Origin: a virus
IMG/VR virus record: IMGVR_UViG_3300039055_000105
Location: 1 to 42,478 of that record
DNA: 42,478 nucleotides
Strand: one strand, 5' to 3'
Position numbers: made by a program
Shown here: positions 9,001-15,000 of the stretch, one piece after another
Layout: the number at the start of each line of letters is the position of its first letter
How positions within the stretch are numbered: position 1 is the stretch's first letter

Positions 9001-12000
9001 AGTCGAGAAGGCTGGATTTCTCTATTGGATAGAGTTCTTAAATCTTTCTTTATTACAGGAAAGTCTTTCTCATATAGTACCGTATTAGTGAGAGGAGCTG
9101 GAGAGCTTATTAAAGGGTTCGGAGGGACTGCCTCTGGTCCAGGACCTCTAATAAAAGGAATTAAGCAGATAGCTAAACTACTAAGCGGTAAAGGAGGAAA
9201 GAAAATATCTCCTGTAGATGCCTTAGACATTATGAATATTATCGGTAGTGTAGTTGTTGCCGGTAATGTACGTAGGTCAGCTCAAATAGCCTTAGGAGAT
9301 AGCATAGACAAGAACTTCCTATATGCTAAGCGATGGGACTTAGGAAACATACCTTCCTATCGAGCAATGTCTAATAACTCTGTGGTTGTTAATGATATAG
9401 ATGACCTTCCTGATTATTTCTGGGAGGGTTATTTAGGCAATGGAGAGCCTTATGGTATGATTAATCTACCTCTATCAAGAGCCGTAGGTAGATTAGGAGA
9501 GACTCAGTACCCAGATCCGGATGTAGAAGGGTATAATCCTTGTGCAGAGCAGTCACTAGCTAATTATGAGACTTGTTGTTTAGCTGAAATATTTTTACCT
9601 AACAACAAGACTAAAGAAGAGCTGTGGGATATAGTAGAGCTATTATATAAAATAAATAAACATAGCCTAGCACTGCCCTGCCACCTAAAAGAGACAGAGG
9701 AGATAGTACATAAGAATATGCGTATGGGTATCGGAATTACAGGATACCTACAAGCCTCTAAAGAGCAGAAGTCCTGGCTAGATGAGACCTATAAGAAACT
9801 CAGGGAGTTAGACAATGAGTATTCAGATAAGCATGGATTTAGCAGAAGTATTAAACTAACTACTGTTAAGCCTTCTGGAACTCTGTCTTTATTAGCAGGA
9901 GTAACGCCTGGGGTTCATCCAGGATACAGTCAGTACCATATTAGAAGGGTAAGACTTCGTACCGATGATCCTTTAGTAGAGCAGGCTAGAAAGTCAGGAT
10001 ATCCAGTAGAGTTCGTCAGGTCTTTTGACGGGGCAGAGGATAAAGAGACTTCTATCATATCTTTTCCTTGCTCATTTCCTGAAGGAACTGTAATAGCTAA
10101 GGATGTTTCAGCAGTAGATCAATTAAACTACGTAAAAGAGCTGCAGACTGTATGGTCTGACAATAGTGTATCCTGTACAGTATACTATAAAAAGGAGGAA
10201 CTACCTGAGATAAAAGAATGGCTTCGGAAGAACTACAAAGACTCTGTAAAGTCAGTATCCTTCCTGCTCCACTCAGGACATGGTTTCGATCAAGCTCCTT
10301 TGGAGGAGATAACTAAAGAAGAGTATGAGAGACTGTCAGCTAAGGTACGTCCTATAGACTTTGATGGAGTTAATCATGAACTAGACTCTTCTCTAGAGTG
10401 CGGCTCTGGAGGATGCCCAATTATTTAATATTATTTATGAAAAGTACTTGACAAACACACTTCCCTGCTATATATTATATAGTATAGGCAGGGAGGTAAT
10501 TATGGAGAAATTAATTATGATTAAATTTAATGTATCAGTAGCAGGCTTAGCTTTACTAGGAATGGTTAGTTATGCTGTGATGTCTGTATCTTCTGGAGGA
10601 CTTGAAGAGGTAGATTCGAAAGAGAATGTAATCACCCTTAAGTCAGACTATAATCAACAAAGTATGGAAGAGATGATTCAAAGACTTCGAGAGGCTAACG
10701 AAGATAAGGGAGAGGATGAGCGTATTCTATTAGAAGTATATTCTCCAGGAGGTTCGGTATTTGCTGGCAGGCGTATGTTTGCTGAGCTAGAGAACGGTCT
10801 TCCTGTAGACACCTACGTCTCGTCTTTTGCAGCTTCTATGGGAGCTAATACCTTCCTTAAAGGTGAGAATAGGTACATGGCTCCGGACGCATTAATCCTA
10901 TTTCATGGAGCTAGTATGGGAGGATTGACAGTAGTAGATTTTGCAGATATGTTGCAGGTATTAAAATCTAAATTGTTTATAGATACCTATACTAAGAAAA
11001 TGTCTAGGAGCTCTAAGTATGTAAGTAAAGTCCAAGCCCTAAGGAATATGAAGAGTTTAAAGTCTGAGAAGTTGGATTACGAAGTAACTCCTTCACAAAT
11101 GGCGTACTTCGACACACTAATGAAAAAAGCTCTTAACCAGGGATATGATAAGGTAGTTAGAGGTCTGGAAGGAGATTTTCTACAGTTGGCTACACTAAAC
11201 AATCAATTAGTAGATAGGTTTAATCCACTTATAGAAGCTTCTAACGGTAAATTAACTAGGGAGATTGTAATTCGAGACATCTTTCAAAACTTCGAGCGAG
11301 ATGTATACTTGACTGCGCAACAAGCCCTTGAGTATGGAATTGCTACTCACATCGGAGTACCTAATTTCGATACGTATAAAGCATATTAATCTTAGAGAGG
11401 AGGAGCATCAGCTATGTTAAAAGATGCCCTTAAAAAGATAGACAGGAGAAGGTTCTACCTTCTTCTCCTATTTCTAACTATAGTCATAGTACTAGAGATT
11501 TTCTTTACTTCGGTAATTCCTTTATGGAGAGAGCATTTCTATGATGTGCTAGAGCAAAAAGATCAGTCAGAATTCTTCTACTCGCTAGTATTATTTACTA
11601 TTATGATGCTAGGGTTGGGAGGATCTCAAGGACTTAAAGTATGGGCTGGACAGCTTGTCTCCTTTGAACTAAGAAGAGCTAAAACTAAATTACTATTTAA
11701 ACCCTGGGTAAAGAGATCTAATAGACGAGTAAAGAACTACACTCAGGCTATGACAGAGGCCTTAAGAAATGCTACTGAGTTATTCTTAGAGATTGCTGTG
11801 GAGGTAATAATATCTGGTACCATCGTTGTATCATTGGTGATCATGAGTCTAGATAATCCACCTATTCTTATAGCAGCAACAGCCTATACAGTAGGTATGA
11901 CCCTAGTAGCTTGGCTATTTAACAAGCCTATGATTGCTTCAGATATGGGATGGCAGTCAGAAGAGGGGGAGTTTCGAGAGACTATAACGATGGTATGTGA

Positions 12001-15000
12001 AGGCACTGATTGCTATACTTTTAAAGAGAGGCTTGCTAGAGTCACAGCCGCGTATTATAGATACATTAAAGTAGTTATGTACTTCACACTATTTAGCCGA
12101 GTAAAGGCAGCTTTAGGACAGCTAGTCCCTTATATAATTCTTTCGTACCCTTTTTTCGCTGGAGATATAACTCTGGGTCAGTTCATGAAGGGGGTAGGTA
12201 CTTTTGAGCTTATCGTTATAAACTCAACTATTCTGCTTGTGCTCTATCCTAAGTTAACTAAGGCTAAGGCATCATATAATATTTCTAAGGCGTTTTACGA
12301 GGAGGTTAAAGATGGGTCTTCATCTTAGGAAAGAGAGACTAGAAAACATAACTGCCACTGAGATGAGTGCTATCTTAGGAGTAAATCCCTATAACACAGC
12401 CTCTTCTGTGCTTAAGAAGAAACTTGATCCTCAGCCAATAGAGAGCATACACTTAAGAAGAGGTCATCTTATGGAGCCTGCTGTCTTAGAAGCTCTCCAC
12501 ATGGATCTTGGCTGGAATACCATTAGGCATGAGGGAGGTACTCTAGTTCTTAAAAAGAACAGAATAGCAGCCACTCCAGATGCCTACTTGTCAGATAAGT
12601 CAGCTCTTATAGAGTGTAAAAGCATAGGATATAAATCCTTTGACAAATGGTATAAAGAACCGCCAATACAATACCACGTACAGGCAGCAGTTCAGATGAT
12701 GGTTACAGGAATACATAAGAGCTATGTAGCTGCTTTAGAGGCTGGAGATCCTTATGACTGTGAGTGGAGGCTGGTAGTTTGGCAGGTGTTTAGAGACCAA
12801 GAGCTAGAGAATGTTATGAAGGAGGCTTCTCTAAAGTTCTGGGAATATGCTTCTAGAAAGAAGATGATGAAAGCTAATAAGGAAACCAGAGAATTAGTTA
12901 AAGGCTTAGTAGAAGCTAACAGAGAATTAATATACCCAGACAAAAGCCTATTGCCAAAGGAGGAAAGCCATGAAGACAAGGTTTCCAAGCTACTTTCCCT
13001 ATTTGAATAAGAAAGGATATCTGATTCGAAGAAGGGATTTAGAGAGAGCCTCTCTTAAGCTCTTAACTGAGTACAGATTCATAACCAAAGAACTTGGGCT
13101 CGAACTAGCAGAGATCTTAGCAGATAATTTAGATAAGGTAGATAGTTTTAATCAACTAGTAAATGAAACTAGAAAAATATTTAATTATCGAAAGAGGATG
13201 GGCTGGTATAATGAAAGTCCAGGAGGCTATTACGGAGAGCTAGATCCCAGAATAGCTTCTAAAGACTTTAAAGACGAGGGCAGTCTCTTAGAGGAGCTAG
13301 ACCTTGATAAACTAAGAAAGGGGTTGACATCTATAGAGGATTTTGGTACTATATCAGTGAGAGAGCTTAGAAAACATATAAAGGAGGTCTTATCCGATGA
13401 ACATTGACACAAGAGAAGCCCGGATTATTTTCCAAAATGCGCTAGCACACGCAACAAAGATAGTTATCCACAACGCAGGAACAGAAGGAGTAGAGGTTGA
13501 AGATGTATTGAAGATGGCTAAGCAAATTGCACGTGAAGTTATTATGATTGGACAGAAAGGATAAGTAGATATGACTAAAGTAGTAAGCCCAGTTGGCCGT
13601 TCCCTATTCAGCGTTTTAAAAGAACCTATTGGATGGAAAGGCGCAGAAACTAATCGAAAGTATATTCAACTAGTAGCCATTCCTCGAGTAGAAGGAGCTG
13701 AGTTTATTAAAAAACTTGAAGCAGAGAGCGATAGACTGTATGCAGAAGAAGTAGAGAAAGCTGCGGCACGAGGGAAGTCTACGCGCTTCGGCCGAACACC
13801 TCTAAACTACAAAGAAGAGGGTGATGAGATTACCATTAAATTTAATCGCCGGGAGCAAGATGGACCTCCTGTTGTAGTTGATAGCAATGGTACAGAGGTC
13901 ACGGGACCTATCTCGAAAGATACAGGTGTGCAAGTAGCTCTAGAGTTACGGCCGTATGTAATGAACAATACTTTCGGAGTAAGTTTAAAGATGTTGGCTA
14001 TTAAAACATCTAAGCTAGAGATGACAGCATCCGATGCAGCGGATCTATTTGGGGATTCCCCAGCACCTAAGAGCACCGCCGCTAAGAAAGCTCCTGCAGC
14101 TAAAGCAACTGCGGATGATGTTTCTGATTTGTTTTAAACCAAAGAGGATTGAGGATGGGATACGCACTTACACTTGACTTTGAGACACATGACCCTGCGA
14201 TAGGTAGGAGACAAGGAGCTGGATGGCCCTTTAAGGATTTCGAAGTTCTTGGAATGGCCTATAAGAAGGATGCTAACCCTCCTCAATTTACTACAGATGA
14301 ATCTGAGATGAGAGAGTTGGTACTGGAAGCTAAGTCTTTGATTATGCACAATGCTCAATATGATCTAGGATGTCTTCACAGACTTAAGATAGGGTACGAA
14401 GATAAGCCAATAATAGATACTTTAATATTAGCTAAGCTATATGACAATACTCAATTTAGCTATAGCCTGGATAACTTAGGTCGTGACTTCTTAGGAATTA
14501 CTAAAGACTACGGTCTTTTAGAGGAGCTAGCTAAAGAGCTAGGCATTAGAAAGTATATGGCTCATATGAAACAATTGTTTGAGCATTCTCCTAAGATTGT
14601 AGCTGAGTATGCTCGAAAGGATGTTGAAATAACTTACAGACTTGCTCAATGGTATAAAGAAAACTTGTATAGAGAAGGCTTAGACCTCATACCTTTTTAC
14701 AGTGATCTTCTAAAAGCTTTAACTCTGTGGAGATCTAGAGGAGTTCCTATAGACTTAGATCAGGCCAAGCTATCTATAGACAGTTTAAACGCCTTGCAAG
14801 ACAAATACCTAGAGGAGTTCTACTCGTACTGCCCAGATGTAAACATTGAATCCACTAAGCAATTAGCTGCGGCCTTTAGAGAAATAGGACTAGTTCCTGG
14901 AGTATCTGCTAAAGGAGGAGATTCAGTAGACGCAGCTTGGAGAAAGACTCAGACCCACCCAGCTGTTCTCGCGTTGGAACAAGCTAAGAAATATCAAAAG

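What the first reader, a model, noticed from the sequence alone, without database searches (positions are those of the whole stretch)
11414..12328. Phage-encoded SbmA/BacA-like transporter domain downstream of a B12-dependent RNR
- **Family call:** The 304-aa polytopic protein matches SbmA/BacA-type (ABC_membrane_2) signatures by eye. WREHFYDVLEQ parallels SbmA WYAPFYDLIQ, ...FELRRAKTKLLFKPW parallels FRWRTAMNEYYMANW, and FAGDITLGQFMK parallels VAGTITLGLMTQ. It has no ATPase domain, like SbmA.
- **Established background:** SbmA/BacA proteins import peptides such as microcins, Bac7 and bleomycin. The mycobacterial BacA homologue Rv1819c is needed for vitamin B12 uptake. Class II RNR requires adenosylcobalamin.
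- **Context:** The phage's class II RNR (8524..10428) lies two genes upstream.
- **Hypothesis (inference):** The phage may boost cobalamin or other hydrophilic solute import to feed its own RNR. Alternatively the protein alters envelope permeability or peptide sensitivity. I am not aware of this family being discussed as a phage auxiliary gene, but I cannot search.
Basis: partly seen in the sequence, partly recalled or inferred. Interest (0 to 1): 0.65.

Follow-up and report, generated by a model that had tools for sequence, protein, structure and literature searches.

The report
Phage-encoded SbmA-like membrane transporter
This phage gene encodes a six-helix membrane transporter related to the bacterial SbmA/BacA importers of peptides and vitamin B12, and it belongs to an undescribed family found in many uncultured phages, but relatives do not support the proposed link to the phage's B12-dependent enzyme.

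Summary
The ORF at 11414..12328 (+, 304 aa) is real and translationally coupled to its neighbours. The family call holds.

- **Family evidence:** Pfam SbmA_BacA is just above its threshold for this protein and matches 31 of 32 homologues. The family profile's best PDB hit is SbmA, followed by Rv1819c and ABCD4. A confident AlphaFold model (pLDDT 88) matches SbmA best (TM 0.77).
- **Not a typical SbmA:** It lacks the TM0 domain and three of the five "glutamate ladder" residues. It carries its own near-invariant intramembrane residues (E28, K75, E130, N270). By bit score it is closer to ATPase-fused BclA/YddA-type transporters than to SbmA.
- **Distribution:** About 100 representative clusters belong to the family, nearly all on phage-sized contigs. 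None occurs in 50,697 GenBank phage records, and PHROGs has no family for it.
- **B12 idea not supported:** Relatives sit with class I (B12-independent) RNR or with no RNR in view. None of 80 viral loci with this RNR type carries the transporter. No cobalamin riboswitch is present.
- **Unexpected association:** Phage Clp-type protease genes recur near the transporter gene.

Best reading: an ATP-independent importer of bulky hydrophilic solutes, probably peptides. The substrate is unproven.

The parts
11414..12328 (+). Gene for the 304-aa NBD-less, TM0-less transporter of the SbmA/BacA-BclA/YddA superfamily. It is a six-helix core with N-in/C-in topology. Predicted long helices span residues 11-48, 51-100, 111-144, 149-195, 203-248 and 254-302.
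   Evidence: ORF. Pfam, NCBIfam and PDB profile hits. AlphaFold model with pLDDT 88.4 and pTM 0.80. Foldseek best match SbmA, TMq 0.77, rmsd 3.2 A. Positive-inside charge distribution.
11395..11405 (+). Shine-Dalgarno-like GAGAGGAGGAG, 8 nt upstream of the ATG.
   Evidence: Read directly from the sequence.
12312..13010 (+). YqaJ/RecE-like exonuclease gene. Its start overlaps the transporter's last 17 nt, which indicates translational coupling. It is the most conserved downstream neighbour.
   Evidence: The same arrangement occurs in L001, L002, L006, L013, L014 and L019.
10448..11389 (+). ClpP/NfeD-like serine protease gene directly upstream. The likely true start is the ATG at 10502. The N-terminus carries a hydrophobic signal or anchor segment.
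   Evidence: PF00574 at E 5e-15 and a weak NfeD1b_N hit. Sequence. The same adjacency occurs in L001 and L006.
10448..10476 (+). Best sigma-70-like match in the region (TTGACA-17-TATATT, 11 of 12), lying between the RNR stop codon and the ClpP-like gene. It may be the promoter of a ClpP-like/transporter/yqaJ unit.
   Evidence: This is a consensus match only, not evidence of function.
8524..10428 (+). Class II (RTPR-type, adenosylcobalamin-dependent) ribonucleotide reductase. It is context for the finding, not a demonstrated functional partner.
   Evidence: TIGR02505 at E 5e-101, PF21995, phrog_367. No RNR beta subunit is found in the complete genome.

Best explanation
The gene encodes an accessory inner-membrane transporter that belongs to a phage-borne clade of the SbmA/BacA-BclA/YddA superfamily (Pfam PF05992/PF06472).

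**Shown:**
- It is a six-helix, N-in/C-in protein with the type IV ABC-exporter transmembrane fold.
- It has no ATPase domain, and the complete phage genome encodes no ATPase partner.
- It sits in the early/middle replication and nucleotide-metabolism operon and is translationally coupled to its neighbours.

**Inferred:**
- Like SbmA, BacA and the transmembrane domains of Rv1819c, it forms a homodimer enclosing a large hydrophilic cavity.
- It moves bulky hydrophilic solutes from the periplasm into the infected cell without ATP.
- It is coupled to the proton-motive force through membrane-embedded ionisable residues. Two SbmA ladder positions are kept (E115 = E193, E184 = E276, with R188 = R280). 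A clade-specific set E28/K75/E130/N270 stands in for the missing rungs.
- The most likely cargo is peptides. These would feed, or be destroyed by, the Clp-type proteases that these phages also encode. Cobalamin is at most one of several possible substrates.
For: **Family and fold:**

**No NBD:** the genome is complete and has no ABC signature motif. The model shows only short non-helical intracellular loops (residues 101-110 and 196-202) where ABC exporters have coupling helices. A cellular standalone homologue has no adjacent NBD gene.

**Conserved residues:** Y116, R167, Q189, E193, Q273, E276 and R280 of SbmA are conserved. E28, K75, E130 and N270 are each present in about 96-98% of 105 phage-clade representatives, but not in SbmA and not conserved in the NBD-fused relatives.

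**Topology:** 6, 11 and 4 K/R residues in the N-terminus, ICL1 and C-terminus, against 2, 0 and 0 in the periplasmic loops.

**Direction of transport:** the characterised superfamily members SbmA, BacA, Rv1819c and ABCD4 all deliver substrates to the cytosol (PMC8442886, PMC13316013, PMC12003926; PDB names).

**Proteolysis link:**
- A ClpP-like gene lies directly upstream in the window, L001, L006 and L040.
- A Clp-type AAA+ gene lies directly upstream in L007, L008 and L010.
- Trypsin_2 and M48-like genes lie upstream in L037.
- ClpP-like genes occur in 14 of 22 transporter loci, against 8 of 80 and 0 of 80 in two background sets of viral loci. AAA+ genes occur in 9 of 22, against 0 of 80 and 0 of 80.
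Against: - No substrate, direction or energy source has been tested.
- Three of the five SbmA ladder glutamates are missing (E203 is L, E287 is C/A, E378 is K). The window's own clade has also lost the otherwise invariant R190, D194 and R385 equivalents, and R190A inactivates SbmA (PMC8442886).
- The role proposed for the E28/K75/E130/N270 set is inferred from conservation alone.
- The Clp association is confounded by shared phage ancestry, and Clp genes are not adjacent in many lineages (L002, L014, L017, L019, L041).
- Several lineages have no Clp gene in view (L009, L029, L037, L044).
- Dimerisation was not modelled.
Confidence: 0.45

Rival explanations
1. One reading: the transporter imports cobalamin so that the phage's adenosylcobalamin-dependent class II RNR is supplied with cofactor.
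For: - The transporter gene lies close to nrdJ in the window and in L001, L002, L006, L014, L016 and L019. It also lies about 5 kb downstream of nrdJ in the distant L029.
- One relative (L001) also encodes a PduO-type cobalamin adenosyltransferase, PF01923.
- Two characterised superfamily members, Rv1819c and ABCD4, transport cobalamin, and both are hit by the family profile.
Against: - The transporter co-occurs with class I RNR alpha+beta in L009/L011 and L017/L018.
- It occurs with no RNR in view in at least nine other lineages.
- The derived and ancestral motif states of the transporter do not track RNR class.
- None of 80 IMG/VR loci with this RNR type (50-75% identity; 43 of them at least 15 kb long) carries the transporter or an adenosyltransferase, while the positive controls were recovered.
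- MW202701 and Maribacter phage Panino have the RNR without the transporter.
- There is no cobalamin riboswitch in the window or in five related loci.
Confidence: 0.1
2. The protein is an orphan transmembrane domain of a split YddA/BclA-type ABC transporter. It recruits a host-encoded ATPase subunit and is ATP-driven.
For: - With the same family profile, NBD-fused relatives score 80-95 bits, against 33 bits for SbmA and 27 for Rv1819c.
- Its incomplete glutamate ladder, lacking the E203 and E287 equivalents, is the state reported for YddA.
- Split TMD and NBD genes exist in the YddA clade (PMC13316013).
Against: - The complete phage genome has no NBD gene, and none was seen in any related phage locus.
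- The model has no coupling helices in either intracellular loop.
- A host partner would have to be conserved across whatever hosts these diverse phages infect.
- The standalone cellular homologue also lacks an adjacent NBD gene.
Confidence: 0.1
3. The protein has a non-nutritional membrane role. It might alter envelope permeability or membrane potential for host takeover, superinfection exclusion or lysis timing, or it might act as an exporter.
For: - In L004 the gene overlaps the end of a GH19 endolysin gene. In L040 a lysozyme gene lies two genes downstream.
- In L041 it sits beside an integrase, a position typical of moron or conversion genes.
- The fold is primarily that of exporters.
- The window clade has lost residues whose equivalents are essential in SbmA.
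Against: - The window already has a dedicated 3-TM holin (23354..23917) and a GH19 endolysin (20728..21255), both remote from this gene.
- In most lineages the gene sits in the replication and nucleotide-metabolism operon.
- Strong conservation of the whole six-helix fold and of intramembrane polar residues across about 100 clusters argues for a working transport cycle rather than a simple membrane perturbant.
- There is no match to known defence or exclusion systems in PADLOC.
Confidence: 0.15

Closest known systems
SbmA/BacA (SLiPT family; E. coli SbmA, PDB 7p34/9g3d; S. meliloti BacA)
   Same: - It is the best PDB match by sequence profile and by fold.
- It has no ATPase domain and the same six-helix core (TM1-6).
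- Y116, R167, Q189, E193, Q273, E276 and R280 are conserved.
- There are no coupling helices in the model.
   Different: - It lacks the TM0a/TM0b domain. Window residue 1 aligns near SbmA residue 70, and the protein is 304 aa against 406 aa.
- It lacks the ladder residues E203, E287 and E378 and the gates Y285/D288 and Y368.
- The window clade also lacks R190, D194 and R385.
- It has its own invariant E28/K75/E130/N270 set.
- It is encoded by phages, not by Pseudomonadota chromosomes.
BclA / Rv1819c (mycobacterial BacA) / YddA-type ABC transporters (ABC_membrane_2 + ABC_tran; IMG name 'vitamin B12/bleomycin/antimicrobial peptide transport system')
   Same: - These are the closest relatives by bit score outside the short forms, at 80-95 bits.
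- They share the incomplete glutamate ladder.
- Foldseek TM against Rv1819c is 0.75.
   Different: Those proteins are 520-700 aa with a fused Walker A/LSGGQ ATPase. The phage protein has no ATPase, and the phage encodes none.
NCBIfam PRK12369 'putative transporter' (326-aa, uncharacterised short SbmA-like proteins)
   Same: The architecture is the same: an end-to-end match (residues 18-297 against model positions 19-321 of 326), with no TM0 and no NBD. Phage bridge proteins reach E 1e-62 against it.
   Different: The window protein scores 34 bits against a curated cutoff of 385, so it is not a member. The function of PRK12369 proteins is itself unknown.
Cobaviruses (SIO1-like phages with cobalamin-dependent RNR), cited for the phage-B12 dependency concept
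   Same: The genome has the same two-arm layout, with endonuclease, PhoH, class II RNR, DNA polymerase, primase-helicase, ThyX and a MazG-like gene on one arm (PMC6775973).
   Different: That work infers that such phages depend on hosts that make cobalamin. No transporter is reported there, and the RNR is only about 31% identical to this one.

Membership tests
SbmA/BacA-like / ABC_membrane_2 superfamily (Pfam PF05992, PF06472) | Significant profile match at or above the curated threshold | tested here: met
   PF05992 scores 24.9 bits against a cutoff of 24 (E 1.7e-5) for the window protein. 31 of 32 family members match, with a best E-value of 4.5e-12. PF06472 matches 30 of 32.
SbmA/BacA-like / ABC_membrane_2 superfamily (Pfam PF05992, PF06472) | Six-helix type IV ABC-exporter transmembrane fold | tested here: met
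   The model has pLDDT 88.4. Foldseek gives SbmA TMq 0.74-0.77 and Rv1819c 0.75. Other hits are PCAT1, TAP and TmrAB.
SbmA/BacA-like / ABC_membrane_2 superfamily (Pfam PF05992, PF06472) | Conserved 'QRxxED' motif and the Q273/E276/R280 cluster | tested here: inconclusive
   Q111, E115, Q181, E184 and R188 are kept. The R and D of the QRxxED motif are A112 and A116 in the window clade, although they are kept in the wider phage family.
SLiPT (SbmA/BacA proper) | No nucleotide-binding domain | tested here: met
   The protein is 304 aa. There is no ABC signature motif anywhere in the complete genome.
SLiPT (SbmA/BacA proper) | N-terminal TM0 domain (TM0a/TM0b), giving 8 TM helices per protomer | tested here: not met
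   The alignment starts near SbmA residue 70. The model has only six long helices. The definition is from PMC8442886.
SLiPT (SbmA/BacA proper) | Complete glutamate ladder (E193, E203, E276, E287, E378) | tested here: not met
   Only the E193 and E276 equivalents are present. The other three positions are L125, C195 and K283.
SLiPT (SbmA/BacA proper) | Absence of coupling helices | tested here: met
   DSSP on the model shows that the intracellular loops at residues 101-110 and 196-202 are short coils. This rests on the model alone, and ICL1 has a pLDDT of only about 61.
SLiPT (SbmA/BacA proper) | Proton-driven peptide import by a homodimer | not testable with these tools
   This needs transport assays and a multimer model or structure.
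BclA/Rv1819c/YddA ABC transporters | Fused or adjacent ABC ATPase | tested here: not met
   None is present in the window or in any related phage locus.
Cobalamin uptake systems | Consistent genomic association with B12-dependent enzymes or cobalamin genes | tested here: not met
   Class I RNR or no RNR is found in most lineages. None of 80 nrdJ loci carries the transporter. An adenosyltransferase is found only in L001.
Cobalamin uptake systems | Cobalamin riboswitch control | tested here: not met
   There is no Rfam hit in window 8000-12500 at E <= 1. There is no hit at gathering score in the window, L001, L002, L014, L017 or L029.
NCBIfam PRK12369 | Score at or above the curated cutoff (385 bits) | tested here: not met
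   33.6 bits.

The most novel reading that the evidence does not exclude
Phages have evolved their own lineage of ATP-independent secondary transporters from an ABC transmembrane domain, in parallel with the bacterial origin of SbmA/BacA. This lineage uses a different intramembrane coupling network (E28-K75-E130-N270) in place of the SbmA glutamate ladder and the TM0 scaffold. It works together with phage-encoded Clp-type proteases as a peptide import-and-degrade module that feeds or protects the infected cell.
Probability: 0.15. Interest if true: 0.75.

Novelty: new variant of a known kind. Interest (0 to 1): 0.5.

Why it matters
- **Rarity.** Integral-membrane solute transporters are rare among phage auxiliary genes. 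This one belongs to a superfamily known for promiscuous uptake of antimicrobial peptides, bleomycin and vitamin B12.
- **Antibiotic sensitivity.** If functional, infected cells would acquire a new uptake route. That could change their sensitivity to peptide antibiotics.
- **Transporter evolution.** The family would be a second, independent example of an ABC transmembrane domain converted into an ATP-independent transporter. That question is under active discussion for SbmA.
- **A caution.** Adjacency to a cofactor-dependent enzyme in one phage lineage is not evidence of a functional link.

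Tried and rejected
- **GenBank phages.** tblastn and megablast against 50,697 records found nothing for the transporter or for the region.
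- **PHROGs.** Only a weak hit (E 0.0046) to a generic ABC transporter family.
- **Cellular genomes.** Two pattern scans of the GTDB species genomes for cellular relatives (A1 profile, then P0124) found nothing. Alignments A2 and A3 were too diverse for pattern scans.
- **Habitat.** A literature search for the metagenome accessions found nothing, so host and habitat remain unknown. The window has no tRNA genes.
- **Phylogenetic control.** I tried to control the Clp association through DNA-polymerase relatives. The IMG/VR relatives are only about 33% identical, so they serve as a second background and not as sister phages.
- **Lysis role.** Considered, and placed among the lower-ranked rivals, because the window has its own holin and endolysin elsewhere.
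- **Defence systems.** PADLOC gave no hit.
- **Motif change and RNR class.** I considered whether the window clade's loss of the R190/D194/R385 equivalents marks a substrate switch tied to nrdJ. It does not track RNR class.

Full report
**1. The observation**

The ORF at 11414..12328 (+) exists and encodes 304 aa. It is preceded by GAGAGGAGGAG, 8 nt upstream of the ATG. It is followed by a YqaJ-type exonuclease gene that starts at 12312, inside its 3' end and behind its own GAGGAGG. The gene is therefore translationally coupled within a long + strand operon. No convincing terminator lies between the neighbouring genes. The best sigma-70-like match in the region (11 of 12) lies at 10448-10476, between the RNR stop codon and the upstream ClpP-like gene.

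The window's first and last 99 nt are identical, so it is a complete, circularly assembled phage genome of about 42.4 kb. It has two arms.

- **The + arm (about 3.9-23 kb)** carries ClpP-like, endonuclease I, PhoH, class II RNR, a second ClpP-like gene, the transporter, YqaJ, an SSB-like gene, PolA, primase-helicase, an RNase H-like exonuclease, a MazG-like gene, ThyX, peptide deformylase, GH19, dUTPase, a GNAT acetyltransferase and dCMP deaminase.
- **The - arm** carries the holin, the structural genes and the terminase.

**2. Family assignment**

- The window protein scores 24.9 bits against Pfam SbmA_BacA (cutoff 24) and 18.7 bits against ABC_membrane_2.
- It matches NCBIfam PRK12369, a 326-aa 'putative transporter', end to end at E 2.6e-8. 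That is far below the curated cutoff.
- A search of 5.8 billion proteins found 33 homologues of about 300 aa. Of the 32 sequences aligned from this set, 31 match SbmA_BacA, with a best E-value of 4.5e-12.
- The best PDB hits of the family profile are SbmA (3.8e-7), Rv1819c (2e-5) and ABCD4 (2e-3).
- An AlphaFold model built on the alignment is confident (pLDDT 88.4, pTM 0.80) and consists of six long helices.
- The best Foldseek PDB matches are SbmA structures (TMq 0.74-0.77, rmsd 3.2-3.7 A). Generic type IV ABC-exporter transmembrane domains follow, and Rv1819c scores 0.75.
- Bridge proteins of 295-349 aa link the family transitively to SbmA (E down to 1e-48) and to PRK12369 (E down to 1e-62).

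Superfamily membership is therefore secure.

**3. How it differs from SbmA**

SbmA is defined by a TM0a/TM0b domain plus TM1-6. It has a five-residue glutamate ladder (E193, E203, E276, E287, E378) and gates at R280, Y285/D288 and Y368. It has no coupling helices (PMC8442886; PMC13316013).

The phage protein differs as follows.

- It starts near SbmA residue 70, so it lacks TM0.
- It keeps the equivalents of Y116, R167, Q189, E193, Q273, E276 and R280. All of these are also conserved in the ATPase-fused relatives.
- It has L, C and K at the positions of E203, E287 and E378, and I at the position of Y368.
- The window's own clade has additionally lost the equivalents of R190, D194 and R385. These are invariant in the most distant phage tier (tier 3), the bridge proteins and the NBD-fused relatives, and they predominate in tier 2.
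- The phage clade has its own near-invariant intramembrane polar residues: E28 in TM1, K75 in TM2, E130 in TM3 and N270 in TM6. Each is present in 101-103 of 105 representatives. SbmA lacks them, and they are not conserved in the NBD-fused relatives.
- With the same profile, NBD-fused relatives score 80-95 bits against 33 bits for SbmA. The clade is therefore a separate ATPase-less offshoot of the BclA/YddA-like stock and not a truncated SbmA.
- The charge distribution fits an N-in/C-in topology.
- The two intracellular loops are short coils without coupling helices.
- The complete genome has no ABC signature motif. Walker A motifs occur only in PhoH and the helicase.

**4. Distribution**

- An exhaustive profile search of 1.84 billion representatives found 83 clusters at E <= 1e-30. 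All are about 270-310 aa and lack an ATPase. From about 1e-22 the hits grade into short bridge proteins and 520-700-aa ATPase-fused transporters.
- Every short form whose context I could read was on a phage contig, with one exception. These contigs carry terminase, a T7-type portal, PolA, DnaB/primase, YqaJ, endonuclease I or VII, or an integrase. They are L001-L011, L014, L017-L020, L029, L037, L038, L040-L042 and L044.
- The exception is P0151, a standalone gene on a 220-kb bacterial contig among T2SS, hemB and accBC genes, with no NBD gene beside it.
- Several other short forms lie on contigs of 32-69 kb.
- The family is absent from 50,697 GenBank phage records. PHROGs offers only a weak generic ABC hit.
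- In BFVD only NBD-fused ABC transporters appear (giant viruses and one metagenomic myovirus), plus one 291-aa Catovirus protein.
- Two literature searches and the 2025 taxonomic survey of SbmA/BacA/BclA found no mention of phage-encoded members.

**5. Testing the B12 hypothesis**

Points in its favour:

- The RNR is a genuine RTPR-type class II enzyme. No beta subunit is found in the complete genome.
- The transporter gene lies close to nrdJ throughout the window's clade.
- One relative, L001, also encodes a PduO-type adenosyltransferase.

Points against:

- The link breaks down with distance. L017/L018 (49% identical transporter) and L009/L011 (36%) carry class I RNR alpha and beta subunits. 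L004, L007, L008, L010, L037, L040, L041, L042 and L044 show no RNR in the 8-20 kb that could be read.
- L029 combines a distant transporter with nrdJ, and the transporter's motif state does not track RNR class.
- In the reverse direction, none of 80 IMG/VR loci carrying this RNR type at 50-75% identity has a transporter gene. The median locus length was 15.9 kb, and the five positive controls were recovered.
- The two nearest GenBank phages that carry this RNR also lack the transporter.
- No cobalamin riboswitch or any other Rfam family is present.

Cobalamin may still pass through a promiscuous cavity, but comparative genomics gives no support for a dedicated role.

**6. What does associate with the transporter**

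- A ClpP/NfeD-like protease gene with an N-terminal hydrophobic segment lies directly upstream in the window, L001 and L006. A ClpP-like gene lies one small ORF upstream in L040.
- A Clp-type AAA+ ATPase gene lies directly upstream in L007, L008 and L010.
- A Trypsin_2 gene and an M48-like gene lie upstream in L037.
- With locally built HMMs, ClpP-like genes occur in 14 of 22 transporter loci, against 8 of 80 RNR-only viral loci and 0 of 80 PolA-relative loci. AAA+ genes occur in 9 of 22, against 0 and 0.

This association is confounded by shared ancestry of the phages, and adjacency is not universal. I treat it as a lead. It does fit the known biology of BacA, where import delivers peptides to cytoplasmic proteolysis (PMC12912959).

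**7. Best explanation and rivals**

- **Best explanation (0.45):** an ATP-independent, probably proton-coupled, homodimeric importer of bulky hydrophilic solutes, most plausibly peptides, made during the replication phase. Fold, topology, absence of an ATPase and operon context are shown. Dimerisation, energy coupling, direction and cargo are inferred.
- **Dedicated B12 importer (0.10).**
- **Orphan transmembrane domain using a host ATPase (0.10).** This is favoured by the closeness to NBD-fused relatives and the YddA-like incomplete ladder. It is disfavoured by the absent coupling helices and the lack of any NBD gene.
- **Non-nutritional membrane role (0.15),** such as exclusion, lysis timing or efflux. 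It is hinted at by endolysin adjacency in L004 and L040 and integrase adjacency in L041. It is disfavoured by the dedicated holin and endolysin elsewhere in the window and by the absence of any PADLOC match.

**8. Verdict**

The family call is right but needs refinement. The specific B12 interpretation is not supported. What remains is a well-supported, apparently undescribed phage-borne branch of the SbmA/BacA-BclA superfamily with its own conserved intramembrane residues. I rate it a new variant of a known kind, of moderate interest.

Noticed in passing
window 10448..11389 (+) and 6380..6964 (+): The early arm carries two ClpP-fold protease genes, which is unusual for a T7-like layout. The one directly upstream of the transporter has an N-terminal hydrophobic signal or anchor segment (MEKLIMIKFNVSVAGLALLGMVSYAVMSV) and a ClpP-like SFAASMGAN serine motif. 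It also gives a weak NfeD1b_N hit, so it may be membrane-anchored or exported. Clp-type genes are enriched in transporter-bearing phage loci.
   Followed up: partly
L001:16932-17378: A phage 71% identical in the transporter encodes a 148-aa Cob_adeno_trans protein (PF01923, a PduO-type cobalamin adenosyltransferase) in the slot where the window has DUF2784. It was found in none of 80 other viral loci with this RNR type.
   Followed up: partly
L001:6366-8990; L006 about 6092-9100; L009:4744-7377: The RNR genes of several relatives are interrupted by inteins. L001 has Intein_splicing plus HNH_3 in a class II RNR. L009 has an intein plus LAGLIDADG in a class I RNR alpha subunit. The window's RNR is intein-free.
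   Followed up: no
window 1..99 and 42380..42478: The first and last 99 nt are identical. This is the signature of a circularly assembled, complete genome of about 42.4 kb. It allowed me to say that the whole phage encodes no ABC ATPase, no RNR beta subunit and no tRNA.
   Followed up: yes
window residues A112, A116, I290 of the transporter (about nt 11747-11761 and 12281-12283): The window's clade has lost three residues together: the equivalents of SbmA R190, D194 and R385. These are invariant in the most distant phage tier, the bridge proteins and the NBD-fused relatives. R190A inactivates SbmA. The loss does not correlate with RNR class, and its meaning is unknown.
   Followed up: partly
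L041:6638-7504 (-) beside 8003-8881 (+): A distant family member lies next to a tyrosine integrase on a 41.5-kb contig. Some carriers are therefore probably temperate, and the gene occupies a moron-like position there.
   Followed up: no
L044:6950-12042: A 51.7-kb phage contig that carries a short SbmA-like gene also encodes the PrkA / DUF444 / SpoVR triad, normally a bacterial stress or sporulation-associated cluster.
   Followed up: no
window 21271..21558 (+): A 95-aa ORF just after the GH19 endolysin gene gives a weak, sub-threshold hit to NMN_transporter (PF04973, E 0.0037). It is probably a small membrane protein of the lysis cassette and not a transporter.
   Followed up: no
window 11444..11466 (+): A 10-bp stem-loop followed by a T-rich tract lies 30 nt inside the 5' end of the transporter ORF. 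It was one of only two terminator-like hits in 8.5 kb, which is fewer than shuffled sequence gives. It could be a chance match or a translational or attenuation element.
   Followed up: no
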